A stretch of DNA of 64,000 bases from a virus: the IMG/VR virus record IMGVR_UViG_3300007987_000009. One strand, 5' to 3'. Of this stretch, positions 2,136-61,148 are shown in pieces (position 1 is the first letter of the stretch; every line of letters begins with the position of its first letter). Both the position numbers and the translations under genes were made by a program. Under the pieces are notes generated by a model. The model saw nothing but the letters and a program-made list of their open reading frames with translations, did no database searches and had not been told where the DNA came from.

Positions 2136-3760
2136 TTAAACTGGACAGGTTCCCCATACTGGAAGTTTGGCCGTTCCATTGATTGGACTGTTGATTGCAA
2201 AGCTTGATGGTTCCGGGGTAATATTTGTAACACACCACCCGGATATGTCTTGATCAAACGACGTTGCGTTTGCAAACATAAAGCTCATAAGGTTTCTATT
2301 AGTTACACTACTAACATCCCAAGAACCAATATCTGCATTGAAAGCAGTAGCACCTGAAAACATTGAGGTCATGTCACTAACATTTGAAACGTCCCAAGAG
2401 CTAATATCTGCATTGAAAGCAGTAGCACCTGAAAACATTGAGGTCATGTTACTAACATTTGAAACGTCCCAAGAGCTAATATCTGCATTGAAAGCAGTAG
2501 CACCTGAAAACAAGTTGCTCATGTTTGCTAGTGATTGAATGTTCCAGCCGGAAAGATCACGATTGAACGGAGTTCCACTAAACATAAAGCCAGCAGAAAT
2601 TAACGATTCTGTGTTCCAGTTCCCGATGTCGGTGTTGAAAGAGCGAGCGTTAGAGAACATGAACCCCGTGTCGGTTACTGAAGAAACATCCCATTCGCCG
2701 ATGTCCACATTAAATTGATAACAAGAATCAAACATAGAATTCATATTAGTTACTGAAGAAACATTCCACCCACCCACATCATCATTAAAACTATAACAAC
2801 TATCAAACATCGAAGCCATGTTTACTGCACCCGAAGTGTCCCAAGATGAAGCATTTATCGATTTGAGGCTGTTGCAACGCGCGAACATGTCAGACAGATC
2901 ACACGACCCCGAGAATTTCCAGTCTGTGGCATCAACAGACGAAAGTGTCGCACAGTTGTTAAACATGCTAGTGCAGTTACAATTGTTAAATTTCCATCCT
3001 CGCAAACATAGTGTATCTATCTGTTCTGAGTCTATAAACATTTGAGCGGTTGTAGTTGCTTTAGAAACGTCCCATTTGCTCAAATCTAATCTGTTTGTGT
3101 TTCTGCTCCTATTGAAAGTTGATTGGAAATTAGTAACGTTTGAAACATCCCAATTTTGCAAAGACTCTTTGGCTTTTTCTGTCAAAAAGGAATCTCTGAA
3201 ACAAGAGTTTAATGTAATAACACTAGGGGGTAATTCTTCTGGTAGATCGTCGACGTATCCAAATTCAAAAGTACTTACCAGACCGGTAATACCTAGATCT
3301 CCAAAATCTACAATACGTTCGCTCGTACTATTGAAATCGAAAAATGATCCAAAAGTCTCCGACGTACCACTAATGGATATAGTATATTTTCCTTTAGTAG
3401 GATAATTGCGGTTTACGTTAACAGACGCGCCTTGGAAATTTTCAACTGGAGACCCATCTCCCCAATCTATTAAAATATCACAATTAGAGAAAAAATACCC
3501 AGAAATACTATTGTTGTTACTTGCAGAAGTGTCAATCTCTATAAGCATCGGGCGATACGCCAAGGGTTTGACAACAGTTTTTCCATTTTCCAAATTTACA
3601 TAAACACTATCGCCATCCTCTATTATGTCTTCTATTGTTTTGAGTTTTCTATCTGTGTTGTAGCAATATTTCGAGGAATTGGCGCGCAAGTTTAAAGTAG
3701 AGATAACCTCTTTGGCCTGACTGAATCAACTGTGTCTAGTACGTATAAAAATTCTTTCAT
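2136..3760 (-). CDS. BspA/DUF285-type repeat surface protein; probable true start 3760 with a 1-nt frameshift at ~3707
   Basis: Many 25-aa FNxDIxxWDVSxVTxMxxMF repeats and an IDWGDGS domain; TATAAATA on - strand at 3795-3802. Confidence 0.85.
2328..2512. repeat. About 2.5 near-identical 75-bp tandem units inside the BspA gene
   Basis: AATATCTGCATTGAAAGCAGTAGCACCTGAAAACA starts at 2328, 2403 and 2478. Confidence 0.95.
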
Positions 3761-8573: not shown

Positions 8574-8651
8574 GGAGCAGTAGTTTAATTTTGGTAAAAT
8601 GCCTCCCTGTCACGGAGGATGATGCGGGATCATACCCCGTCTGTTCCGCCA
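8574..8651 (+). tRNA. tRNA-Asp(GTC)
   Basis: CCTCC-CT-GTC-AC-GGAGG, GCCA. Confidence 0.9.
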
Positions 8652-9633: not shown

Positions 9634-9709
9634 ACCCCCGTAGCTCAATGGGAAGAGCATGGTCCTTCTAAGGCCGTGGTTGCGGGTTCGAGTCCTGCCG
9701 GGGGCACCA
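9634..9709 (+). tRNA. tRNA-Arg(TCT)
   Basis: GGTC-CT-TCT-AA-GGCC, ACCA. Confidence 0.9.
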
Positions 9710-18064: not shown

Positions 18065-18679
18065 ATGTACAACCCATTTTCATTCAAAAAGAATGATGCA
18101 GTAGAAATATTGGTAATCGCAGATCGATCTGGCTCTATGCAATCCATTGAAAAAGATGCAGTCGGAGGGTTCAACGCGTTTTTAAAAGAACAAAAAAGTA
18201 TAGAGGGGGAGGCAAGACTCTCTTTGGTTCTTTTTGACGATCAATATGAAATGAAACTAGATTCTGTTCCCCTTGCAGAGGTCACGGAGATAGAATCTTT
18301 GGGGCCAAGAGGAATGACTGCGATGAACGATGCTATTGGTCGTGCTATGAATAGTCTGTTTGAAAAAGACCCAGAAAAGGCTATTATTTGTATTTTGACC
18401 GACGGTCAGGAAAACGCGAGTCGAGAATACAACAATTCGCAGATTAAAGAAATGATTCAGAAAGCGGAAAAAGAAAAAGGATGGCAGGTTATCTATCTCG
18501 CCGCAAACCAAGATGGATTTAGTGAAGGCGCAAGTAGGGGAATATCAAAATCTAACATTTTTAACTATAACGCTGATGCTAACGGGATCAACGACGCGTA
18601 CAAGGACTTGAGTTTTTCTGTTCGCTCTTATAGACAAAATACTTCCAACACTTACACGGACAAAAACACCGTGGAATGA
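18065..18679 (+). CDS. VWA-domain protein
   Basis: DRSGSM MIDAS, TAMNDAIG, ILTDGQENAS. Confidence 0.9.
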   Translation: MYNPFSFKKNDAVEILVIADRSGSMQSIEKDAVGGFNAFLKEQKSIEGEARLSLVLFDDQYEMKLDSVPLAEVTEIESLGPRGMTAMNDAIGRAMNSLFEKDPEKAIICILTDGQENASREYNNSQIKEMIQKAEKEKGWQVIYLAANQDGFSEGASRGISKSNIFNYNADANGINDAYKDLSFSVRSYRQNTSNTYTDKNTVE

Positions 18680-18968: not shown

Positions 18969-19058
18969 AAAAGTCGAAAAAAGTGTTGACAAATGTCCCA
19001 CATGGTAGTAATATGTATCACATGATCTGTTTTGAAAGATTCAGATCAAAAGTTTAAA

Positions 19059-19904
19059 GCATGGATGCTTGCTTTGGGCAACCAGAGTAAAGGGTGAAAG
19101 AACTACAATTCATCCGTCCCGCAAGGGTCAAGCCATGCAAGCGCCGGTTAGGAAGTACGAGATAAAACTCTAAGGCTTCCCCGTATGATAAGTGCGGTGT
19201 GTGCGAAATCGAGAGTAAGAGTCCGAAAGGATAGTCTCAGAGCCATTCGGTGAGAGACAAGGCAGTTGGCGCTGCTCACTTTTACATGCCAACTCGATGA
19301 GCATTTAATACTAAGGCGTAGGTATAGGGTTCGATTGTTCGCGCAAGAGATGCTCTGTACCATCTTGATCGGATGAAGTGTAACAACTTCAGTCGTGAAA
19401 AGACGTTGAGTAGCTCGCAAGGCGAAAGACAGTGTGGAGTGTTGTATTCTGATGGACAAAATCTGTTGGAGCAACTGGGGCAGCACTTCATGGTAGGTAA
19501 TACGATACGGCCAAATTGGTAAAGGCATCTGTTTCCTAGACAGACGATTGAAGGTTCAATTCCTTTTATTGTTGAAAAAGCGAAAGTCTGCCTCAGTGTG
19601 CTGTTAAAGGCGATTAATACCAGACCGAAAAGAATCTGGTGCAACAATACCCGCAAGGTTGCGTTGTTTGATCGGACAGAAGACGTAAGAGTTTAGCGAC
19701 TCCGAATGGCTCGCAAGGTCAGCGGAAGATGGAAGGTCGAGTAGCAGTACATGATGAGTGAACCGCCACACTCTAAAAAAGGCATCGTTGGAAGATACTA
19801 GGAGAGCGTTCGACGCGCCTAGTGGATAACGGGAGAACCCACCGAAAGCAAAGGTAGGGATAATGCCCAAAGGCTTCCAAGACATTGCCGTAGTCTCAAG
19901 CGTG
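19059..19904 (+). ncRNA. Large ornate ncRNA, GOLLD-like
   Basis: ~850 nt, GC-richer than flanks, many GCAA/GAAA tetraloop hairpins, perfect 11-bp long-range pair 19240-50 with 19702-12; promoter TTGACA-17-TAATAT at 18986. Confidence 0.75.
19501..19574 (+). tRNA. Degenerate tRNA-like module (CCT anticodon) embedded in the large RNA
   Basis: D arm GCC/GGC, TCTGT-TT-CCT-AG-ACAGA, GAAGG-TTCAATT-CCTTT, no CCA. Confidence 0.65.
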
Positions 19905-19954
19905 TCATTTTATTTCTCAGACCATTTACGAGTGGTTTAAGAAATGAAAAAAAT

Positions 19955-20275
19955 GGAGGCCATTTTGTTCGCATCCTTCTACTATTTTTGGATAATATAA
20001 TCAGCGACATAGCTTTCCTCCTATAAATTTTAAAAATCATTGAAGGCTATATATGTGCATCCTTCTACTATTAGAATTACATCTAACTCAAAATGTGCGC
20101 AGATTCTTTCTTTCAATGATATCTATGATTATGACAGGCCATTGATATGTGCATCCTTCTACATATAGGTAATTTGTGGGTCGCAGGTTCGAGTCCTGCC
20201 CTCCCGTCCATTTATCGGGAGGTAGCTCAGTTGGTAGAGCAACAAACAAAAAATAGCGTTATCTTCTTTCCTGTC
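19955..20275 (+). ncRNA. Array of three paralogous structured RNAs; the third has a permuted tRNA domain (Y-RNA/YrlA-like)
   Basis: GCATCCTTCTAC at 19971, 20057 and 20151 inside differently sequenced closing stems. Confidence 0.75.
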
Positions 20276-20836: not shown

Positions 20837-20908
20837 ATTTGTCCGTTGACATCACATCTAAAAGCAAGTACAATTTATGAATTCTACAATAAGAAGAGAG
20901 TTCGAAAC

Positions 20909-21520
20909 ATGAAATCTTATCCAAGTATACCACATAAAATCGACTGGAAACTTAAGTATATTGCGTTTGACAAACTAGACGGATCAAATATAAGGGCCGA
21001 ATGGTCCAAGAAGAGGGGTTTTTACAAGTTTGGTTCTAGGACACAACTGTTGAATGAACAACAAACTTCCCTATATCCATCAATAGATATAATTAAGGGC
21101 AAATACGAAGATGGTGTTGCTACAATGTTCAAGAACATGGGCTATGATCGAGGTATATGTTTCTTTGAATATTTTGGTCCTAATTCTTTTGCCGGATCAC
21201 ATTCTGATCCGGTACAAGATATGGACGCCGTTCTGATTGATGTCAATCCATACAAAAAGGGAATAATTCCCGCAAATGAGTTCCTAGAGGTTACACGAGG
21301 TATGGAAGTACCTGATGTTCTGTATACAGGTGTTCTCGATGAAGAATTTGTGGATTCGGTCAAGGACAGCACTCTTCCGGGGATGACGTTAGAGGGTGTT
21401 GTGATCAAAGCAGTAGATAAGAAACATAATTCCATGGCGAAGATTAAGTCTAGGAAATGGCTTGACATGCTCAAAGAATACTGCAATAATGATCCTAAAC
21501 TATTCAACAGGTTAAAATAA
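20909..21520 (+). CDS. RNA ligase-like nucleotidyltransferase
   Basis: DKLDGSN, FEYFG, EGVVIK, AKIKS. Confidence 0.75.
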   Translation: MKSYPSIPHKIDWKLKYIAFDKLDGSNIRAEWSKKRGFYKFGSRTQLLNEQQTSLYPSIDIIKGKYEDGVATMFKNMGYDRGICFFEYFGPNSFAGSHSDPVQDMDAVLIDVNPYKKGIIPANEFLEVTRGMEVPDVLYTGVLDEEFVDSVKDSTLPGMTLEGVVIKAVDKKHNSMAKIKSRKWLDMLKEYCNNDPKLFNRLK

Positions 21521-22113
21521 TGATAGAACTCGAATTACTGGAACACCCAACATACCCCGAGAACCGAGTTCGCTTTACTGCTCGGGTAGATATGGTTAAA
21601 ATGATGGTGTGGCTGGCACACCGTGGAGAAAAATATGAACGGGTCCGGGGGACTACTAAAGATGGGAAGTCTTTCATATTTGAAGGATTCTTTTTACTTC
21701 CTTCCGATATTAAAAATACCGACGCAACTGAGCCGGATTTAGAGGAAATAATTTGTCAGGGGTGCTTTGATCATTGTGTAGTACAAAAAGAAGAAGAAAT
21801 GAATGCCGGCCAAAAAATGGAGCAGATGTTCCGAAAAGATTCACAATTACTACGAGGGATAGAACTCTGTGAAATAGAGTATGATGAAAAGACTGATACA
21901 TACTCCATGGTTTTGTTGTCTGAAAGTATGAAATACATCATATGCGGCAGAGACAAAACGCCAAATTGCAATAACTACATGGGTTGTATTGCAACTGAAA
22001 GATACGGGATCGCGGGAAATGATCTAAGTGACGGAGACTTTTCTGCAAACACATGGAGCCAAATCGTACTTGATATTCAATATTACGAGGCTTTGTCTAA
22101 ATCGGATTTATAA
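21520..22113 (+). CDS. Hypothetical protein
   Basis: Coupled ORF. Confidence 0.55.
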   Translation: MIELELLEHPTYPENRVRFTARVDMVKMMVWLAHRGEKYERVRGTTKDGKSFIFEGFFLLPSDIKNTDATEPDLEEIICQGCFDHCVVQKEEEMNAGQKMEQMFRKDSQLLRGIELCEIEYDEKTDTYSMVLLSESMKYIICGRDKTPNCNNYMGCIATERYGIAGNDLSDGDFSANTWSQIVLDIQYYEALSKSDL

Positions 22114-22115
22114 TT

Positions 22116-22439
22116 ATGAAAAGAAAGCAATTGGTAAGAATGAAGTTCAGGGACGCAGTTTTAAAGCGGGACAATTATACGTGTGTGAGTTGTGGTCGAA
22201 AAATGGACGAAAAGCTATTGGACGCCCATCACATAACCGACCGAAACGAAATGCCCAACGGTGGTTATGTAAAAGAAAACGGCATTACTCTATGTAAAGA
22301 AAAGTGTCACTTGGAGGCCGAACAGTTTCATATCAGCGGCGGGAAAAATTGGACAGATGGCTTGCATCCCGACGAATTGTATGCTAAGATAGGCTCTTCA
22401 AAGGAAGAAGCAATATCTGCTTCAAGGAGATTAAAATGA
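22116..22439 (+). CDS. Small HNH endonuclease
   Basis: RDNYTCVSCG..LDAHHI..NGITLC..CH. Confidence 0.85.
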   Translation: MKRKQLVRMKFRDAVLKRDNYTCVSCGRKMDEKLLDAHHITDRNEMPNGGYVKENGITLCKEKCHLEAEQFHISGGKNWTDGLHPDELYAKIGSSKEEAISASRRLK

Positions 22440-23089
22440 ACCATTACAAGTACCCTAGAACGCCACACCTTCCATGGAGTGAAGGAGTTACCGACGATGA
22501 TAAAAAGCTTTCTTCTGTTGATCATTTCGAAGGTAAAAGAGTTTACGCCACCGAGAAACTCGACGGAGAAAATACGACACTTTATCGAGATTATGTTCAT
22601 GCTAGGAGTATAGATTCTCCCACAAATTTTACTCGATCTTGGGTGCAAAATTTCCATCGTCAAATTGCGCACAATATTCCAGAAGGATGGAGAATTGTGG
22701 GTGAGAATGTATGGGCAGAACACTCAATCCGATACGAGAATTTGAAATCATACTTCTATCCATTTGCGGTCTATAACGACGAAAATTTCTGTCTTTCTAA
22801 GGGCGATATGGAAATTTTCTTGAGAACGGAAGCTTTTAAGGATTTGCCAAATCGTTGGAAAATACCAACGAGCCCACCGGTGATATACAGAGATGTTTTC
22901 GATAGATATGCCATAGAGGCCATTGAAATCGACCGAGAAAAACAGGAGGGGTATGTTATTAGAACCGAAGACGGTTTTCATTATGATGATTTCGCACTCC
23001 ATGTTGCTAAATATGTTCGAGAAGGTCATGTCCAGACTGACATACATTGGCTGAAGAACGCCAAGAAAAATGGGGAAATAAAAGGATGA
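22436..23089 (+). CDS. RNA ligase family protein
   Basis: KYPRTPHLPWS, TEKLDGENTT, EGYVIR, AKYVR. Confidence 0.85.
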   Translation: MNHYKYPRTPHLPWSEGVTDDDKKLSSVDHFEGKRVYATEKLDGENTTLYRDYVHARSIDSPTNFTRSWVQNFHRQIAHNIPEGWRIVGENVWAEHSIRYENLKSYFYPFAVYNDENFCLSKGDMEIFLRTEAFKDLPNRWKIPTSPPVIYRDVFDRYAIEAIEIDREKQEGYVIRTEDGFHYDDFALHVAKYVREGHVQTDIHWLKNAKKNGEIKG

Positions 23090-27303: not shown

Positions 27304-27990
27304 ATGGATTTGGGTGACAGGATGAAAAGATACGAAAAATGCGTAAGCCCCCAGCTAATTCCGAGGGTTCCTGTAATTATTCGCGTAGATGGAAGAGCGT
27401 TTCATACCTTTTTGAAGGGTTTTGAAAAGCCGTTTGATGCGGAATACATAACATCCATGAAAGAATCTGCTCAAGTGGTGGCCTCTGAAATGCAAAATTT
27501 CAGAATAGCCTATATTCAATCAGACGAAGCAACATTCATGCTCCACAGTTCTGATCCAAGGAGCCAATTCTGGTTTGACAACAAACAGCAAAAAATGACT
27601 AGTATATCAGCAGCCTTAATGACTGCGAACTTTAATAGAATTCTTTCCACTCACAAAGGGAATTTGGAAAAATTAGCTGTGTTTGATGCTAGGGCTTTTA
27701 ATGTCCCCGAGTCTGATGTGGTTAATATTTTTTTGTGGAGAGTAAAAGACTGGAAGAGAAACAGCTTACAGATGTACTGTAGAGCGCACTTCAGCCACAA
27801 GAAATTAATTGGTAAGAATACAGAGGCAATGAACAAAATGTTAAAAGATTCGGAAATTACACCGTGGGAAAACTTACCTTCTAATTTGAGAAACGGTACA
27901 TTTATTTTTCGAGACGGTTCTAAAACTTCGGATTTTGACCCCACTTACGAGGGTCTTACAGATCTTTTTTGCAACAGAGGAGTTCTCTAA
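27304..27990 (+). CDS. thg1: tRNA(His) guanylyltransferase Thg1-like
   Basis: RVDGRAFH, YIQSDE, FDAR, WRVKD..RNS. Confidence 0.92.
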   Translation: MDLGDRMKRYEKCVSPQLIPRVPVIIRVDGRAFHTFLKGFEKPFDAEYITSMKESAQVVASEMQNFRIAYIQSDEATFMLHSSDPRSQFWFDNKQQKMTSISAALMTANFNRILSTHKGNLEKLAVFDARAFNVPESDVVNIFLWRVKDWKRNSLQMYCRAHFSHKKLIGKNTEAMNKMLKDSEITPWENLPSNLRNGTFIFRDGSKTSDFDPTYEGLTDLFCNRGVL

Positions 27991-31094: not shown

Positions 31095-31960
31095 GAAAGG
31101 CTTTAGTAGTATTAGGACTGTTGTCAGTCATGACAACTGCGACGGCGGACAGTTACACCGGAATAGAGACCACCGTGTTTGTGGACGAATTTTCACAATT
31201 TTATCGGGCAGATATAATTGCATACGGTAAAGAAAATTCTTCTGGATATCTAGTATTGGGTGGAATTACCGCAGTGGAATCTTTCGACGGAAACGGTACC
31301 TTTGACGGTGGTGGATTTATTGGAGTTGAAAAGTATTACAATGAACATGCAAGGTTGCGTAGTCGTTTGTATTACTACGAAGACAATGGACTTTTGGGGC
31401 AGGCCACACTCTTTGGTAAGACGTTCGTCAATAATGTGGCATATTACGGTCAATGTCAGAAGCAAGTCATAGATAATACTTGGGGCATCACAACTGGTAC
31501 AACATATGTGGGTTGTGATGGAAGTCTGGAGTGGACCCTTGGGGATTTTGGGTTGGTTGCAGGTGCATATAGATTTGATTTCTCGGACGACAACCAAAGA
31601 GAAGGAAACTATTTTAAGGGATTTTATGACTTTGACGAGAATTTTCGTTTGAGTTTAAACTACCGTGATGACGGGTTCGCCCTTGACAGTGATGAGTATT
31701 TCAGCCCAGATGATTGGGAGCAGACTTATGCAATGGTTCATTGGAAAGAAGAAATTCTCGAAGGGTTCACCAATCACTTAGGTGTGGGCTACGGTGAAGA
31801 ACGCATCGACGGATTCACCAGAAACCCGGTATACTTGGAATACAAAGTATTCTGGGACACCGGTCCCCACAGCCTTTTTGGCGAAATAAAGGGTAGAATG
31901 TCAAGTGACTACAAGTTTATTTGGTCAACCGTAGGGTACAGATACCGTTGGTCCTCGTAG
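31091..31960 (+). CDS. Outer-membrane beta-barrel, possibly a PgaA-like exporter
   Basis: Signal peptide MRKALVVLGLLSVMTTATA; EYFSP loop; terminal VGYRYRW; coupled to the GT2 gene. Confidence 0.65.
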   Translation: MRKALVVLGLLSVMTTATADSYTGIETTVFVDEFSQFYRADIIAYGKENSSGYLVLGGITAVESFDGNGTFDGGGFIGVEKYYNEHARLRSRLYYYEDNGLLGQATLFGKTFVNNVAYYGQCQKQVIDNTWGITTGTTYVGCDGSLEWTLGDFGLVAGAYRFDFSDDNQREGNYFKGFYDFDENFRLSLNYRDDGFALDSDEYFSPDDWEQTYAMVHWKEEILEGFTNHLGVGYGEERIDGFTRNPVYLEYKVFWDTGPHSLFGEIKGRMSSDYKFIWSTVGYRYRWSS

Positions 31961-32027
31961 CTCAACTGGACAGAGCACAGTCCTCCTAAGACTGGGGTTG
32001 GGGGTTCGATTCCCTTCGAGGACACCA
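31951..32027 (+). tRNA. tRNA-Arg(CCT), overlapping the barrel stop codon
   Basis: CAGTC-CT-CCT-AA-GACTG, ACCA. Confidence 0.92.
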
Positions 32028-34362: not shown

Positions 34363-36441
34363 ATGAACAAGCTACAAATTTCTCTTAAGAAGAGAAACGC
34401 AGTTGTGTTGAACAGCACCGAACAGTCTGACGACCTGTCCAAGGTTATGACACTACAGGCCAATGTAATCACACTGGGTTTTGTTCTGTCGGAGCCCTTG
34501 GCAAAAACTTTGGCGGCATTGGATAGCGACGCTACTTACAACCAGCTTGTTCAAGAACTTCGTTCTTTGAAGGGGGCAGACGTACAGTATCGCCCAATGT
34601 ACCCAAATTTCCCACAACAGGTTATGGAAGCTAGTGATCTTGAGTTGTACATAAACGCTATTGTGCATTACTGGAGCTTAGGAACATGGTCTCAAGAATA
34701 TGAAGTTCTTCCGAGAGAGTTTGCCGCCGAAAACAACAAGCTGATCGAAATAGGATTGATCGACGAAAAGGAATTCGCAAGCATCTTCACAGAAATCTTG
34801 TCTTCTAATGATTCTATTTTTGATTACGACAAGAATGTGGTCGAATGGTTCTTGCAGAATTATGAAAACATCCGGTATCCAGACACCATTCCGTATAAGG
34901 AAAATGTGGCTCTTATCGGAGCGTACATGGTTCGTAATGGAATGGAGTTGGATAGATTGACCAAGACCACTACAGACGTTCTAAGAGTAGCTGTGAGGCT
35001 TTCCGACGGTGATGTGTCTCTCGGGACCAACACCAAGTTCAAGAGCCTACCGCGAAGTCAGAGGCGCGTTCTGGTAAATGCTCTGGATCGTGTGACTGAG
35101 CGTTTGGGTGATCGTCAGGTGGCCGAAGATATTTATCGTTACGGTGGAATGTGGAAGCGGTTGGCACACTCGTTGCACGTTGGGGATTTTTCCAATAAGG
35201 CATGGGATACCATGAACGGTTTGAGAGAAGGTAAGAAAGCCAATCATTTCTACTCCGATTTGGAACAATTTTTGGCTAGTGGCCACTACGCAAAAGCCAC
35301 CAAGTTGTTGCTAGAACGTCCGGGTGAAATGGCTCGTAGACTTGATCTTTTGTTGAGGCGCGTAGATAGCAAAAACAAACAGACTCGGATTTTGACTGCA
35401 TTCTTGGGAGTGGCAGATAAAGTTTCGACTAGGGTTTTGTTTCAGGTTCGAGGTCACTTCAACACTAGAAAACACGGTTCTGACTTCCGAATCGTTCTTC
35501 CTAAAGGAAACATTAAGGCTGGAAAAAAGATTGCAGGACAAACTGCCTTGGACAGCACCATAGTTGATAAGTTGATTGCTGGTATAGATTCCGTATTGGT
35601 TGAAAAATTTTCCAGTATGGATTCTTTGGGCAAAGTATATATTTCTCCGGAAATGATGAATTGTCCGTTGCCATCACAACAAAGAGAATCCAGCGACGGT
35701 CTACGACAACTGGCAAGAGGAACTCGTGTCAAGGTCAACGAAGATCAGTCTACCGTTAGATTCTTTGTATATTGGGTTGGTAGAGATATCGATTTGAGTG
35801 CGGCTTTCTTGGATGAAAATTTCGAAAGTGTAGGACACGTTTCTTACACTAATTTGAGAGACTCGGGGCTGGCCGCGTATCACTCTGGGGACATCGTCAG
35901 TGCTTTCCGTGGTGCAAGTGAGTTTATCGATATCAATATTGATAAAGCCAAAGAGAGCAATACTAGAGCACGATATGTTTCGATGAACGTTTACGTTTAT
36001 AGTGGACCGAGTTTCAAAGAACATTCAACTTGTCATGTCGGTTGGATGTCCAGAAGCAAGCCTAAGAGTAACGAAATCTATGATCCGAAGACCGTAGAAA
36101 ACAAAATAGACCTAAATTGGAACACAAAAAATTGTATTCCTCTTCTGATCGACTTGGAAACCAGAGAAGTTGTTTGGATTGATCTACCCTATCAAGGAAA
36201 TAATTACGGTTGTTGGGGTGGAAATAACATCGAAAACAACATGGCTTCTACTGCTGAAATCATGGAAATGAGTGCTTCTATGGTAGAAAAGAAAACTACC
36301 CTTTGGGATGTTTTCATGATCCATGCAGAAGCGAGGGGCGAACTTGTAGAGTCCCGAGAAGACGCAGACACTGTGTTTGATTGGGATGGTAATGTTACTC
36401 CATATGATGTTTCTAGGATTGATGCAGAGTTTCTAATGTAA
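34363..36441 (+). CDS. Helical (ROT/TROVE-like) repeat protein with C-terminal TerD-like domain
   Basis: PMYPNFPQQVM, TTTDVLR, RPGEMARRLD; TerD motifs DIDLSA, HSGDI, GASEFIDI. Confidence 0.75.
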   Translation: MNKLQISLKKRNAVVLNSTEQSDDLSKVMTLQANVITLGFVLSEPLAKTLAALDSDATYNQLVQELRSLKGADVQYRPMYPNFPQQVMEASDLELYINAIVHYWSLGTWSQEYEVLPREFAAENNKLIEIGLIDEKEFASIFTEILSSNDSIFDYDKNVVEWFLQNYENIRYPDTIPYKENVALIGAYMVRNGMELDRLTKTTTDVLRVAVRLSDGDVSLGTNTKFKSLPRSQRRVLVNALDRVTERLGDRQVAEDIYRYGGMWKRLAHSLHVGDFSNKAWDTMNGLREGKKANHFYSDLEQFLASGHYAKATKLLLERPGEMARRLDLLLRRVDSKNKQTRILTAFLGVADKVSTRVLFQVRGHFNTRKHGSDFRIVLPKGNIKAGKKIAGQTALDSTIVDKLIAGIDSVLVEKFSSMDSLGKVYISPEMMNCPLPSQQRESSDGLRQLARGTRVKVNEDQSTVRFFVYWVGRDIDLSAAFLDENFESVGHVSYTNLRDSGLAAYHSGDIVSAFRGASEFIDINIDKAKESNTRARYVSMNVYVYSGPSFKEHSTCHVGWMSRSKPKSNEIYDPKTVENKIDLNWNTKNCIPLLIDLETREVVWIDLPYQGNNYGCWGGNNIENNMASTAEIMEMSASMVEKKTTLWDVFMIHAEARGELVESREDADTVFDWDGNVTPYDVSRIDAEFLM

Positions 36442-57907: not shown

Positions 57908-59353
57908 TCATTTCTTTTCTTGTTGGATGGCATCAACAATGGTTCGTATCTTCGCCAACCTCTTGTCATCAGTAGAAAGATTGAATTCTTCCCATCCGAA
58001 AAACTCCAGCATTGCTTTTTTAACTTTGTCTTTTTTAGTTCCATTTATAACGAACAGAATTCTCTCCATAATATCGTTGCTCAAAGATACTAACTGACCT
58101 CTATCCAGAATAGTCAACCAAACATTCACTACAGCTTTACGAGTTGACAAATCTTTTTGAATCTCGGTTAGCCCGTGCTCTCCAATGTGACTCAAAAAGT
58201 TTTGGATTCGCGCGTTTCGGTGATGTGTGGTTTCTTCGTATGGATTCTGCGGGTCAATTGACAAGAATTGAAGAAGATCCTCACTAAGTCCTTCGTATTG
58301 ATATACATTGGAATTGGTGGTTAGCCATGCATTGATTTTTCTACGCTTGGTCTGTGAAACCGTTGTGCTTTGTGCCATTTCCTTAAGAGCGTCAAAAAAT
58401 TCGGGACTGTCACTAGCATCAACTTTTTCTAGAATTTTTTCAAATTTATGTATTGAGTTAGACTGACAGAACTTAGCCACATTCTCGGCAGACATGTGGG
58501 GAACCAGTTTAGATGCTAGTTCATCGTCGTTCTTTACTTTATTTTCAACAAAAGTATAAAAGCTAGGATCGGTCAGATGTTCCCTCATTTCTTTTCTACC
58601 GATTGAACCCTCTTTCATTTCTTCCAAGATGCGTATGAAAGAACCACTTTTAAGTTGAGAAATAAGATCCTTACAGGGGGCACCTGCCGGGAGAATGTCT
58701 TTGATAGAACCACCTAGGGATTCGACCTTCATGCAGTAATCAAGACGGCGGGGACTAATGGATTTTTGAAGATCAGTAGTAAGAGACTTCCACCACTCAC
58801 AAGCAATCGTACCCTTTTCACCGTACTTTTCATAAAAATATTGAACGCTAACGTCATATCCGAACTGGAAATGTACGTGGAATCGATCAAGCTGTGCCGG
58901 GTCAATTTCTTCAACATCATAGTCGTTCTCATCGTCGTTCGATGGGTTGACTGCTGCCCACACACACTTTAGATTAGTGAAACGATGACCATTGATCGAG
59001 CCAAATTGCATCAACTCCATCACAGCGTTTCTAACTTTTTTCGGCGCACGGTTGAATTCGTCAAAGATGATTGCTTTAACCTGATCTCTCTCAAACACTT
59101 CAGGTCGAACAAGATCAAGGAACACAACACCATCATCAGCGACCCTCTCCTTGGGAACACCAACGAAATCCACCCACGGGTCCATCGTTGCGGCGGAGAA
59201 ATACAACCAATCACGGCCACGCTCTCCGAAAATTTCGTTGAAGGTCTTCTCGGCCAGAGCCGTTTTACCAACACCGTGTGGACCCTCGAACAAAACGTTC
59301 AGTCCGTGTGTGGCCCAGAAGGCCAATTTACTTTCACTAGGAAATCTTGCCAT
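57908..59353 (-). CDS. MoxR-like AAA ATPase
   Basis: GPHGVGKT, FDEFNRA, AAVNP, DPAQLDRF, SPR. Confidence 0.88.
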   Translation of the reverse strand: MARFPSESKLAFWATHGLNVLFEGPHGVGKTALAEKTFNEIFGERGRDWLYFSAATMDPWVDFVGVPKERVADDGVVFLDLVRPEVFERDQVKAIIFDEFNRAPKKVRNAVMELMQFGSINGHRFTNLKCVWAAVNPSNDDENDYDVEEIDPAQLDRFHVHFQFGYDVSVQYFYEKYGEKGTIACEWWKSLTTDLQKSISPRRLDYCMKVESLGGSIKDILPAGAPCKDLISQLKSGSFIRILEEMKEGSIGRKEMREHLTDPSFYTFVENKVKNDDELASKLVPHMSAENVAKFCQSNSIHKFEKILEKVDASDSPEFFDALKEMAQSTTVSQTKRRKINAWLTTNSNVYQYEGLSEDLLQFLSIDPQNPYEETTHHRNARIQNFLSHIGEHGLTEIQKDLSTRKAVVNVWLTILDRGQLVSLSNDIMERILFVINGTKKDKVKKAMLEFFGWEEFNLSTDDKRLAKIRTIVDAIQQEKK

Positions 59354-59419
59354 TTTTTTTTTCTCTCCAATTGATTTGTATTTTAAGTATATTTCAATTT
59401 TTGCCGTATGTCAATCTAA

Positions 59420-60823
59420 TTATTCAAAATCTTCCAATTTGTGAATTATGGAAGTTTTGGGGACATTGTTGGTAGAATATCCACTAGTCATAAACCAGTG
59501 CCATCTTTCTGGATGCTGTGGAGATACGTTATTACCATATCCATCTGTGATCAGAAATACCGCATCCGGATAACGAACTTCTTCACGGGCCATGATTTTT
59601 TGAATCTCTGCCTCGATTGGACTGAACGCAGTACCACCAAATCCATAAAGTTCACCAGACTCAAGAGATGTCTCGTACACTCTGGTATCAAAGCAGAACA
59701 TACGAACGTTAAAGAACTCTTTAGGAATTGATTTGGCGGCTCTCCAAAAACGGTCGGAGTAGCCGGAACATGAACCGGAAGTGTCTAAGAAAAAGTAGAT
59801 TCCTATTTTGTTCTTTTCTATAAGTGGCTCATCTGTTTCCATTTCACTAGGCAGAATCAAATCAGAATCTCGAAGCAACTGGAAACGACGAGCGTTTCTA
59901 GCCCACTGTTCTTCAACTCGAAATTCTTCAAGTCTAGTCTTTTTGACCCACTTTTTAATTACAGTCTCCCACTTTGGTTTTGGTTTGACTCGCATGTTGG
60001 GGTCCATCTTTCTAAGGATGTTTCCGGGACTGACACCAGCTTTTTGGTTTGCTTCTTTTGTTTCTATACCATCATTAATTTTTTCGTCAAGGTCTTTATG
60101 ACGCTTCTGAAAATCTTTTGCTACCTCGTTCATTTCTTGGGTGTCCATCCGTTCAGCCAGTTCTTCAAGAAGTTCGGTCATATCCTCAAACTCCCCAGAG
60201 CCGTTGTCACCATCTGACTGGTCTGAGTTATTCTCGTCGCCGTCCTGTTCCCCAGAGCCATCACCGGAGCCACCTACGTGTTGATCAACAGTCTCTAAGA
60301 TATCTTTCAACTTTTCAAGAGTTTCATCACTCATTTCTTTCAACTTGGTGTAGTAATATTCCGAGCTTCGGTTGGGCGCAATTTCATGTGATCGTTCTTT
60401 GAACACTGTATCAATCCAGCAATACTTGCTTTCTGGATCAATGTCATCCCTAGAAAAACCTAACTCCACGAGACGATGATTGATGACAATATCACATGCC
60501 CAGTTCATTAGTAGTACTTCTCTCTGAGTCTTGGCGTGTCTGAACAACCGATATCCGTGATTATATGTCACATGAAGACATTCATGTGCAATCAGGAATG
60601 CTTTCTGTTGGAAAGTCAAAGTATTCCAGAAATTCTCGTTTATTAAGAATTCTAGAAATTTACCACTTCTATTGAAACTCACTGCACCCGTTATAACGAT
60701 TTCTGCCTCAGAGCCTTCAACAAAACGAGGTTTACCCATTTCCCACAAATGATAAAACGAACCGTGCTTGTAGTCCAATTCGTTTAACAAGTCCAAATAT
60801 TCGTAATGTTCAATTGTTTTCAT
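59420..60823 (-). CDS. DUF2201-type metallopeptidase plus VWA protein
   Basis: AHECLHV, NWACD..IN, DTSGS, GGT.F, TDGY. Confidence 0.88.
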   Translation of the reverse strand: MKTIEHYEYLDLLNELDYKHGSFYHLWEMGKPRFVEGSEAEIVITGAVSFNRSGKFLEFLINENFWNTLTFQQKAFLIAHECLHVTYNHGYRLFRHAKTQREVLLMNWACDIVINHRLVELGFSRDDIDPESKYCWIDTVFKERSHEIAPNRSSEYYYTKLKEMSDETLEKLKDILETVDQHVGGSGDGSGEQDGDENNSDQSDGDNGSGEFEDMTELLEELAERMDTQEMNEVAKDFQKRHKDLDEKINDGIETKEANQKAGVSPGNILRKMDPNMRVKPKPKWETVIKKWVKKTRLEEFRVEEQWARNARRFQLLRDSDLILPSEMETDEPLIEKNKIGIYFFLDTSGSCSGYSDRFWRAAKSIPKEFFNVRMFCFDTRVYETSLESGELYGFGGTAFSPIEAEIQKIMAREEVRYPDAVFLITDGYGNNVSPQHPERWHWFMTSGYSTNNVPKTSIIHKLEDFE

Positions 60824-60887
60824 GATTTGAATTATACCAACCCTTCTACAAAGTGTCAAGAAAAAAAAAAAATACCAAATTTTTGTT

Positions 60888-61148
60888 TCAGAGGGTAGAT
60901 TCTTTGATTTTGGACCCACTTTCCGGATTCGTAAGAGGGAGAATATAATCAATAGTTTGCTCCACACAGGTCCTAGTGGAAACCACCAAAATTACATCCC
61001 CAGATGGATCAATTGCATACGTAGTCTTACATACTTCTATTCGAGGCAAATTGTGATTTGCAATCCCGATTAAAAACGCAAGGCCAACCAAAGCGACTAA
61101 GATTACGATAAAGAAACCATAATACGCACCACGTAGAGCACGACTCAT
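60888..61148 (-). CDS. Small membrane protein
   Basis: N-terminal TM, coupled. Confidence 0.55.
   Translation of the reverse strand: MSRALRGAYYGFFIVILVALVGLAFLIGIANHNLPRIEVCKTTYAIDPSGDVILVVSTRTCVEQTIDYILPLTNPESGSKIKESTL

What the first reader, a model, noticed from the sequence alone, without database searches (positions are those of the whole stretch)
19955..20275. Three-member array of a new Y-RNA-like ncRNA family; one member carries a circularly permuted tRNA
Seen: three units (19955-20021, 20036-20120, 20133-20275) share one architecture. Each has an outer stem with different but complementary sequence (GGAGG/CCTCC, ATCATTGAAGG/CTTTCAATGAT, GACAGG/CCTGTC), an internal loop CYAT opposite CTTT, an inner stem ending in GC, and the invariant ATCCTTCTAC followed by a variable domain. 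In unit 3 the variable domain is a complete permuted cloverleaf: TTTGT, GGGTC, T arm GCAGG-TTCGAGT-CCTGC, CCTCCCG-TCCA, linker TTTAT, CGGGAGG, D arm GCTC-AGTTGGTA-GAGC, ACAAA. The conserved stem occupies the place of the anticodon loop. Known: bacterial YrlA Y RNAs have this T-acceptor-D order on a Ro60-binding stem, but I do not recognise the Ro60 motif here. Inference: modular adaptor RNAs with a constant protein-binding handle and swappable payloads. The retained CCA could give a chargeable two-piece RNA after RNase P cleavage, that is, a tRNA mimic with no anticodon to cut.
Basis: partly seen in the sequence, partly recalled or inferred. Interest (0 to 1): 0.88.

Follow-up and report, generated by a model that had tools for sequence, protein, structure and literature searches.

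The report
Phage Y-like RNA array, tRNA mimic
Three small RNA genes just after a giant GOLLD RNA in a jumbo phage share one conserved "handle", and one carries a back-to-front tRNA look-alike; they belong to a large uncatalogued RNA family that sits beside the gene for a large helical+TerD protein in about 77 of 80 other phage loci, so they are probably the RNA parts of an undescribed particle resembling Ro60/Y-RNA.

Summary
Units at 19955-20021, 20036-20120 and 20133-20275 share an outer stem, a CYAU/YUUU internal loop, an inner stem closed by C-G, single-stranded AUCCUUCUAC and a variable payload. Unit 3's payload is a permuted tRNA (T arm, acceptor, D arm). It matches Rfam YrlA at 51.5 bits, below the cutoff of 69.

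The family is real. A syntenic phage (L084/L071) has GOLLD followed by three diverged units. A covariance model built from six units finds 167 more copies in about 77 of 80 phage loci. All lie on the gene strand, directly flanking homologues of the window's 692-aa protein (34363-36441). Over 71 sequences, 96.5% of cells pair (57% when shuffled), 10 of 12 pairs covary, and UCCUUCU is invariant.

The protein has a helical domain plus a TerD domain (NCBIfam SCO0854 family, no RING). Its resemblance to Ro60 is weak (Z 5.9-6.9). The canonical Ro60 motif GNCGAA and a TROVE gene are absent.

The most likely reading is trans-acting Y-like scaffold RNAs for this protein. In this lineage they have moved next to GOLLD.

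The encoded CCA and open acceptor of unit 3 are not conserved, because the orthologue's acceptor is sealed.

This scan found the same RNA-protein pair earlier on other genomes. I found no Rfam family or paper describing it.

The parts
18986..19014 (+). Promoter-like site (TTGACA-17-TAATAT) ahead of GOLLD. No terminator-like site was found between it and the end of the array.
19434..19903 (+). Conserved 3' domain of GOLLD RNA, with embedded tRNA-Arg(CCU) at 19501-19574 that lacks CCA. This is context: the array starts 52 nt downstream.
   Evidence: Rfam RF02032, 169.8 bits against cutoff 150
19925..19940 (+). 16-nt element CATTTACGAGTGGTTT between GOLLD and unit 1. It is identical in the diverged relative L084.
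19955..20021 (+). Unit 1: outer stem GGAGG/CCTCC, loop CCAT/CTTT, inner stem 19964-19972 with 20004-20012, handle 19973-19982, 21-nt AU-rich payload.
   Evidence: 69 bits
20036..20120 (+). Unit 2: 11-bp outer stem, loop CTAT/CTTT, inner stem ending GC at 20057-20058, handle 20059-20068, 26-nt payload with a small hairpin.
   Evidence: 84 bits
20133..20275 (+). Unit 3: outer stem GACAGG/CCTGTC, loop CCAT/CTTT, inner stem 20143-20152 with 20256-20263, handle 20153-20162, payload is a permuted tRNA-like module.
   Evidence: 33.7 bits, not in the training set
20173..20246 (+). tRNA-like module of unit 3: anticodon-stem equivalent TTTGT/ACAAA, variable loop GGGTC, T arm 20183-20199, acceptor 20200-20206 with 20216-20222, D arm 20225-20240.
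   Evidence: Rfam YrlA RF02553, 51.5 bits, E 8.6e-11 over 20166-20268, below cutoff 69
20207..20215 (+). Discriminator U plus CCA (20207-20210) and the 5-nt linker TTTAT that closes the acceptor. The predicted RNase P site is between 20215 and 20216.
   Evidence: Sequence. 23 of 25 window tRNAs encode CCA. Not conserved in L084/L071.
34363..36441 (+). 692-aa helical + TerD protein, the candidate protein partner of the handle RNAs. It is followed by a GC-rich hairpin and a T-run.
20846..23089 (+). Context: RNA ligase (20846-21520), unknown ORF, HNH (22116-22439), RNA ligase (22436-23089).
27304..27990 (+). Context: Thg1-like tRNA 5'-end repair enzyme. It is also present next to the unit in L072.
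18065..18679 (+). Context: stand-alone MIDAS vWA protein upstream of GOLLD. It is syntenic in L084/L071 but not linked to the RNA family elsewhere.

Best explanation
The three units are genes for small, trans-acting, Y-RNA-like scaffold RNAs of a large family that is not in Rfam. Each RNA has a constant two-helix handle. Its parts are an outer stem ending GG, an internal loop CYAU opposite (R)(A/C)UUU, a 6-9-bp inner stem closed by an invariant C-G, and single-stranded (A/U)UCCUUCUA. On the handle sits a variable payload. Inferred step: the handle is the docking site for the phage's 692-aa helical+TerD protein (34363-36441). The payload displays a tRNA elbow (unit 3) or short loops and hairpins (units 1 and 2). 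These could recruit, sequester or present tRNA-recognising factors, by analogy with Ro60, Y RNA and exonuclease complexes. In most phages the RNAs flank the protein gene. In this lineage the array has moved to the 3' side of GOLLD. It is probably transcribed from the GOLLD promoter and cut out at the AU-rich 12-14-nt spacers. Shown here: the structure, its conservation, covariation, family size and gene linkage. Inferred: protein binding, processing and biological role.
For: There are three exact handle copies and a shared fold. Orthologous GOLLD-plus-three-unit arrays occur in L084/L071 with compensatory stem changes, and single units occur in L072/L085 and L081. Model R1 finds the untrained units W3 and C at 33.7 and 42.7 bits, while chance hits stay below 20 bits. 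Covariation on 10 distinct sequences: 89.7% of cells paired against 69% shuffled. Covariation on 71 sequences: 96.5% paired against 56.7% shuffled and 42-55% slid; score 0.98 against 0.185; 10 of 12 pairs change on both sides; the two loop-closing pairs and UCCUUCU are invariant. Gene linkage: 167 R1 hits in about 77 of 80 viral loci that encode a homologue of the 692-aa protein (63 loci at E below 0.001). All hits are on the gene strand, mostly within about 0.6 kb upstream or 2 kb downstream. By contrast there were no hits in about 650 kb of other phage and metagenome loci. Long units in those arrays again hold YrlA-like modules. G-U pairs and the tRNA-module orientation fix the + strand. In the YrlA alignment, the handle motif sits where YrlA has its Rsr-binding GNCGAA motif. 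Three Ro60 structures are the only matches spanning the protein's length.
Against: There is no binding or expression data. In this window the array is 14 kb from the protein gene, and no units flank the gene. The Ro60 resemblance is weak: Z 5.9-6.9 for a helical-repeat protein, no Foldseek match, no sequence or profile match, and no TROVE Pfam hit. Units that flank a gene on its own strand could in principle be cis-acting UTR elements. The covariation alignments were fitted to the model, which inflates pairing somewhat. The role of the TerD domain is unknown.
Confidence: 0.58

Rival explanations
1. They are ordinary YrlA/YrlB-type Y RNAs that bind a canonical TROVE Ro60, either host-encoded or encoded elsewhere in the roughly 257-kb phage genome, through a diverged binding site.
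For: The unit 3 payload aligns to Rfam YrlA. YrlA plus a hairpin-type YrlB made from one precursor is the known pattern. Some jumbo phages encode TROVE proteins (PMC7824862). The rest of the genome could not be searched.
Against: GNCGAA is absent between 19809 and 20662. There is no TROVE or DUF2828 gene in 64 kb. The family is linked to a different protein gene in about 77 of 80 loci. The score is below the Rfam cutoff.
Confidence: 0.1
2. They are cis-acting elements, either autoregulatory operators or stability and processing signals in the UTRs of the protein's mRNA and in tRNA/GOLLD precursors. On this reading they have no function as free RNAs.
For: In most loci they flank the gene on the coding strand. 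AU-rich spacers and closing stems look like processing sites.
Against: In the window, L084/L071 and L072 they lie in GOLLD or tRNA operons far from the gene. There are up to several copies per locus, with different payloads that include complete tRNA-elbow mimics. That is not expected of operators.
Confidence: 0.1
3. Unit 3 is a tRNA decoy or a chargeable two-piece tRNA mimic. RNase P would cut at 20215/20216 and expose an encoded CCA end, giving a tRNA body with no anticodon for host anticodon nucleases to cut. The handle's CUUCUA may itself mimic an Arg(UCU) anticodon loop.
For: Unit 3 has a 7-bp acceptor, discriminator plus CCA and a 5-nt leader. M. smegmatis YrlA is cleaved by RNase P and CCA-tailed in vivo. 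The surroundings encode tRNA repair functions: RNA ligases, Thg1-like, PTH2. The handle is 8 of 10 identical to the phage tRNA-Arg(UCU) anticodon arm.
Against: The orthologue has a sealed 8-bp acceptor with no CCA. Only 7 of 71 aligned family members are 120 nt or longer, the size of tRNA-like payloads. The anticodon-loop likeness could be chance (roughly 0.01-0.05), and the handle is not a closed stem-loop.
Confidence: 0.1
4. They are accessory or cargo RNAs of the GOLLD nanocage, and the handle docks them to GOLLD.
For: The array lies 52 nt after GOLLD with no terminator between them, and this is conserved in L084/L071. GOLLD cages are proposed to hold tRNAs (10.1101/2024.12.08.627333).
Against: The handle-GOLLD duplex energy is no better than shuffles. 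80 protein-linked loci, and L072, have units with no need for GOLLD nearby. phiCbK and DSS3P8 GOLLD loci lack such units.
Confidence: 0.07

Closest known systems
YrlA/YrlB Y RNAs bound by bacterial and mycobacteriophage Ro60 (Rsr); Rfam RF02553; Chen et al. 2014, PMC4201824
   Same: Both have a basal stem with a conserved motif at the 5' side of a large loop. Both carry a permuted T arm, acceptor and D arm tRNA mimic. Both have several Y RNAs per locus made from one precursor, only one of them tRNA-like. Both sit in an RNA-repair gene context. M. smegmatis YrlA, with a 7-bp acceptor, is cut by RNase P and gains CCA.
   Different: The GNCGAAN0-1G motif is replaced by C-G|(A/U)UCCUUCUA plus a CYAU/UUU internal loop. 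There is no TROVE gene. The linked protein is helical+TerD. The match is below the Rfam cutoff and covers only the tRNA-like part.
Thermus phage phiLo Ro60 with Yrl1/Yrl2 (PMC12135203)
   Same: A phage-encoded ring protein has two or more Y-like RNAs encoded right beside its gene.
   Different: phiLo has a canonical TROVE+vWA Ro60 and RNAs with the CGAA motif. Here the protein has a TerD domain in the position of vWA, and the handle is different.
MXAN_6230/SCO0854 family RING-domain proteins (NCBIfam NF041916) and actinobacterial 'TerD family' proteins
   Same: The helical domain and TerD module are shared: E 1e-107 over residues 291-671, and TM 0.84-0.87 over residues 1-450.
   Different: The phage protein lacks the Prok-RING_4 domain and scores below the equivalog cutoff (361 against 600 bits). 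I found no RNA partner reported for the bacterial family.
ACAGCAA-handle RNA arrays beside DUF2828+DUF7788 genes
   Same: These are tandem stem-closed units with one constant single-stranded motif and swappable payloads, including YrlA-like permuted tRNAs. They lie next to a large protein gene inside tRNA regions.
   Different: The handle sequence and architecture are different, R1 finds no match, and the protein family is different.

Membership tests
YrlA (Rfam RF02553) | Permuted tRNA-like module: T arm, closed acceptor stem, D arm, on a basal stem | tested here: met
   The full-length model alignment covers 20166-20268, and the T arm, acceptor and D arm all align. The same holds in L084/L071 and in three protein-linked arrays.
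YrlA (Rfam RF02553) | Score at or above the Rfam gathering threshold (69 bits) | tested here: not met
   51.5 bits. No hit at gathering threshold. Units 1 and 2 have no YrlA match at all.
YrlA (Rfam RF02553) | GNCGAAN0-1G Rsr-recognition motif near the 5' end (Chen et al. 2014) | tested here: not met
   No GNCGAA on either strand between 19809 and 20662.
YrlA (Rfam RF02553) | Encoded next to a Ro60/Rsr (TROVE) gene | tested here: not met
   No TROVE or DUF2828 hit among the window ORFs scanned or in the L084 flanks. The genome outside the window could not be searched.
UCCUUCUA-handle RNA family (uncatalogued; model R1) | Two-helix handle with a GG|CYAU...UUU|CC internal loop, an inner stem closed by C-G, then (A/U)UCCUUCUA | tested here: met
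   All three units score 33.7-84 bits. The invariant positions match the 71-member consensus.
UCCUUCUA-handle RNA family (uncatalogued; model R1) | Genome also encodes the helical+TerD protein of about 690 aa, usually adjacent | tested here: met
   The protein is at 34363-36441. However, it is 14 kb away and not adjacent, unlike about 77 of 80 other loci.
Ro60 / TROVE proteins (for the 692-aa protein) | TROVE HEAT-repeat ring detectable by sequence | tested here: not met
   No Pfam TROVE hit even at E up to 10. The profile search against PDB sequences finds no Ro60.
Ro60 / TROVE proteins (for the 692-aa protein) | Ro60-like ring fold | tested here: inconclusive
   2NVO: Z 6.9, 314 residues, rmsd 4.8. 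9L5Y: Z 6.0, 299 residues. 1YVP: Z 5.9, 327 residues. These are the only near-full-length matches, but Z is below the level that is safe for helical repeats. Foldseek gives none.
Ro60 / TROVE proteins (for the 692-aa protein) | C-terminal vWA/MIDAS domain | tested here: not met
   The C-terminal domain has a TerD fold: Z 14-15 to 2QZ7 and 2KXT.
GOLLD RNA (RF02032; context) | Score above the gathering threshold, with an embedded tRNA | tested here: met
   169.8 bits against cutoff 150 at 19434-19903, with tRNA at 19501-19574.

The most novel reading that the evidence does not exclude
Large phages, and relatives of the protein in bacteria, use a second ribonucleoprotein system that is independent of canonical Ro60. 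A ring-like helical+TerD protein is loaded with interchangeable UCCUUCUA-handle RNAs that display tRNA parts. The system would serve to capture, repair or decoy factors acting on tRNAs during infection. In this lineage the RNAs are co-expressed with the GOLLD nanocage RNA and may work with it.
Probability: 0.3. Interest if true: 0.85.

Novelty: new variant of a known kind. Interest (0 to 1): 0.72.

Why it matters
Ro60/Y-RNA particles are the only well-studied example of small scaffold RNAs that tether a ring protein to RNA-processing enzymes, and their bacterial tRNA-mimic form (YrlA) is still not understood functionally. This locus belongs to a widespread family with strong covariation and the same modular logic. 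It differs in having its own handle and in being linked to a different protein (helical+TerD). It is absent from Rfam 15 and Pfam, and I found no paper describing it. That gives a second, independent system in which to ask what tRNA-mimic payloads are for. It also gives an otherwise uncharacterised family of more than 1,400 proteins a testable RNA partner. Finally, this lineage places the RNAs directly behind GOLLD, an RNA with a known structure but unknown function.

Tried and rejected
1. Exact-motif scans of viral contigs returned only chance hits in coding DNA. The family was missed because the handle varies at one or two bases.
2. The genome-contig scan gave 7 chance hits, all 18 bits or lower.
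3. The KVP40 match is two adjacent pseudo-tRNAs with long anticodon insertions, which is a dimer artefact and not a Y-like RNA.
4. Relatives found through the vWA protein and the 100-aa ORF carry tRNA arrays but no units.
5. The vWA protein as a Ro60 remnant: it is a generic integrin-type MIDAS vWA with no Ro60 among the top matches and no PDB sequence hit. It co-occurs with the protein gene in only 1 of 80 loci.
6. Handle pairing with GOLLD is no better than shuffled sequence.
7. Other GOLLD phages (phiCbK, DSS3P8) have tRNAs and permuted tmRNA after GOLLD, and no units.
8. A coding reading is rejected. The ATG upstream of the handle is present only in units 2 and 3, and the stems covary with G-U pairs.
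9. The unit 3 module is not a recent copy of a window tRNA.
10. No diverged units lie next to the protein gene in the window.

Full report
OBSERVATION. GCATCCTTCTAC occurs exactly three times in the window, at 19971, 20057 and 20151, all on the + strand. Each copy sits in the same frame:
- an outer stem (GGAGG/CCTCC; ATCATTGAAGG/CTTTCAATGAT; GACAGG/CCTGTC);
- an internal loop, CYAT opposite CTTT;
- an inner stem ending in GC;
- the 10-nt single-stranded ATCCTTCTAC;
- a variable payload.
Minimum-free-energy folds give this nesting for all three units. The units are separated by AU-rich spacers of 14 and 12 nt.

UNIT 3. Its payload is a circularly permuted tRNA body: anticodon-stem equivalent TTTGT/ACAAA, variable loop GGGTC, T arm, a 7-bp acceptor (CCTCCCG/CGGGAGG) and D arm. 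The tertiary-interaction positions are kept (U8, A14, G18G19, C48, U54U55C56). Rfam's YrlA model aligns to it end to end at 51.5 bits (E 8.6e-11 for the 481 nt searched). That is below the family's gathering score of 69, and only the tRNA-like part aligns well. ARAGORN calls no tRNA there. Nothing resembling the missing halves of two tRNAs flanks it, so it is not the dimeric-tRNA false positive that Chen et al. warn of. The Rsr-recognition motif GNCGAAN0-1G of YrlA (PMC4201824) is absent, with no GNCGAA between 19809 and 20662.

RELATIVES AND STRUCTURE. Exact-motif scans of viral contigs returned only chance hits. A metagenome scan found true relatives among 58 loci.
- L084 and L071 carry GOLLD (151 bits) with an embedded tRNA. 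About 55 nt later come three units whose third member is again a YrlA-like permuted tRNA (47.9 bits).
- L072/L085 carry one unit inside a tRNA array.
- L081 carries one unit with an unrelated structured payload of about 80 nt.
L084/L071 are syntenic with the window: vWA protein 71% identical, RNA ligase 78%.

Orthologous units differ by compensatory changes. Examples are outer stem GACAGG/CCTGTC against TGTAGG/CCTACA, and anticodon-stem TTTGT/ACAAA against TCTGT/ACAGA.

A covariance model (R1) was built from six short units only. It recovers the two untrained tRNA-bearing units at 33.7 and 42.7 bits. All chance pattern hits stay below 20 bits. On the 10 distinct sequences, 89.7% of cells pair (69% shuffled, 39-57% slid) and 9 of 12 pairs change on both sides.

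THE PROTEIN LINK. An earlier first-reader note on this genome (e1-5667259) proposed the 692-aa protein at 34363-36441 as the partner, and I tested that. The protein has no Pfam hit. It does have more than 1,400 full-length relatives at 44-76% identity. A few are named 'TerD family protein', and its exact sequence lies on a contig of 256,834 nt.

I fetched 80 viral contigs that encode a relative and searched them with R1. The result was 167 hits at E up to 1 in about 77 of 80 loci, and 63 loci at E below 0.001. All hits are on the gene's strand. Almost all lie within about 0.6 kb upstream or 2 kb downstream of the gene. About 650 kb of other phage and metagenome loci gave no hit.

On 71 distinct members, 96.5% of cells pair, against 56.7% shuffled and 42-55% slid. 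The covariation score is 0.98 against 0.185, with 0 of 500 shuffles reaching it. Ten of 12 pairs change on both sides. The two pairs that close onto the loops, and the core UCCUUCU, are invariant. These alignments were fitted to the model, which favours pairing somewhat. The slid and shuffled controls were run on the same alignments.

The long units in those arrays again contain YrlA-like modules. Most members carry short payloads: 59 of 71 are under 100 nt. Other RNA-processing genes do not travel with the protein gene. Thg1-like genes occur in 12 of 80 loci, RNA ligase in 6, vWA in 1 and the DEDDh exonuclease in none. In the window no unit flanks the protein gene. In this lineage the array therefore sits 14 kb away, behind GOLLD.

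THE PROTEIN. The AlphaFold model (pLDDT 83, pTM 0.81) has a helical region of about 440 residues and a C-terminal beta-sandwich.
- The sandwich is a TerD fold: Z 14-15, and TM about 0.65-0.68 to 2KXT and 3IBZ.
- NCBIfam places the protein with the MXAN_6230/SCO0854 RING-domain family (E 1e-107, below the equivalog cutoff).
- The atlas shows the same helical domain (TM 0.84-0.87) in actinobacterial TerD and Prok-RING_4 proteins.
- Three independent Ro60 structures are the only matches spanning most of the protein: 2NVO (Z 6.9, 314 residues), 9L5Y (Z 6.0, 299 residues) and 1YVP (Z 5.9, 327 residues).
- Such Z values are not safe for helical repeats. Foldseek and sequence profiles find no Ro60. 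A Ro60-like shape is therefore possible but unproven.

CONTEXT. The window is part of a jumbo phage with at least 25 tRNAs. It carries a tRNA maintenance kit: two RNA ligases and an HNH gene just downstream of the array, a Thg1-like enzyme, PTH2 and an RNase T-like exonuclease. This is the kind of kit described for jumbo phages (PMC7824862). A sigma-70-like promoter precedes GOLLD, and no terminator-like site lies between it and the end of the array. Co-transcription with GOLLD is therefore plausible but not shown.

MECHANISM. The best-supported reading is a Y-RNA-like scaffold. The constant handle docks the helical+TerD protein; this is inferred from gene linkage. The payload presents a tRNA elbow or other small modules to further partners; this is by analogy with Ro60, Y RNA and PNPase, and with the rsr-yrlBA-rtcBA operon. 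In the YrlA alignment the inner stem corresponds to YrlA's basal stem. The invariant UCCUUCUA occupies the place of the Rsr-binding GNCGAA motif.

It also fits this phage's habit of encoding CCA in 23 of 25 tRNAs. However, the orthologue has a sealed 8-bp acceptor with a tetraloop and no CCA. The idea therefore cannot be the family's general function.

A docking role on GOLLD is not supported by complementarity or by other GOLLD phages. The conserved adjacency in this lineage nevertheless remains unexplained.

COMPARISON AND NOVELTY. The units fail three of four YrlA criteria: the Rfam cutoff, the GNCGAA motif and an adjacent TROVE gene. They meet the fourth, the tRNA-like module. They work like Y RNAs but should not be filed as YrlA. 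They also differ from the ACAGCAA-handle arrays beside DUF2828 genes that I saw in phages Bop and KP13-26, where R1 finds no hit.

Rfam 15 has no family for the handle. My literature searches found no description.

This scan has already reported the same RNA-protein pair on other genomes (e1-5760879, e1-5761127, e1-5708501, e1-5341766), and my linkage result reproduces those reports independently. Three things are particular to this window: the array is detached from the protein gene, it is placed directly 3' of GOLLD, and unit 3 has an open, CCA-bearing acceptor.

LIMITS. A TROVE gene elsewhere in the roughly 257-kb genome cannot be excluded. I did not check whether the L084 lineage also carries the 692-aa protein.

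Noticed in passing
window 19925-19940; L084 8907-8922 (- strand): The 16-nt element CATTTACGAGTGGTTT, between the GOLLD 3' end and the first unit, is identical in the two phages although its flanks have diverged. It could be the true 3' end of GOLLD or a processing site.
   Followed up: no
window 19501-19574: The tRNA-Arg(CCU) embedded in GOLLD lacks an encoded CCA, whereas 23 of 25 tRNAs in the window encode it. A second, free tRNA-Arg(CCU) lies at 31951-32027.
   Followed up: partly
L036 (Enterococcus phage Bop) about 300-800; L035 (Klebsiella phage KP13-26) about 420-990: Arrays of 3 and 5 stem-closed units share the single-stranded motif ACAGCAA. Some carry YrlA-like permuted tRNAs. They lie next to unannotated DUF2828+DUF7788 proteins that have a faint Ro60-vWA match. 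This is a different handle family from the one in the window.
   Followed up: partly
window 19973-19982 versus tRNA-Arg(UCU) 9634-9709: The handle AUC-CUUCUA-C has the form of an anticodon loop (C32 U33 UCU A37). It is 8 of 10 identical to the anticodon arm of the phage's own tRNA-Arg(UCU). This may be chance or a relic of origin.
   Followed up: partly
L123 (phiCbK) 1702-2020; L124 (DSS3P8) 3157-3455: In two other GOLLD-bearing phages, a permuted (two-piece) tmRNA gene lies beside GOLLD. GOLLD's neighbours are repeatedly tRNA-shaped RNAs.
   Followed up: no
L084 about 8606-8609 versus L071: The two near-identical contigs differ in the acceptor tetraloop of unit C, CAAG against CTTG. This is an inversion of the hairpin loop.
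   Followed up: no
window 57908-60967 (- strand): A MoxR-type AAA+ ATPase is paired with a metallopeptidase(DUF2201_N)-vWA protein. This is the chaperone pair described for group 2.2 jumbo phages (PMC7824862).
   Followed up: no
window 22116-23089: An HNH endonuclease ORF directly precedes the second RNA ligase and overlaps its start. PHROG 24030 ('RNA ligase') covers both ORFs, so fused HNH-ligase forms exist elsewhere.
   Followed up: no
L034 (Vibrio phage KVP40) 517-763: The two annotated 'tRNA-Pseudo' genes are cloverleaves with 45-49-nt insertions in the anticodon loop.
   Followed up: no
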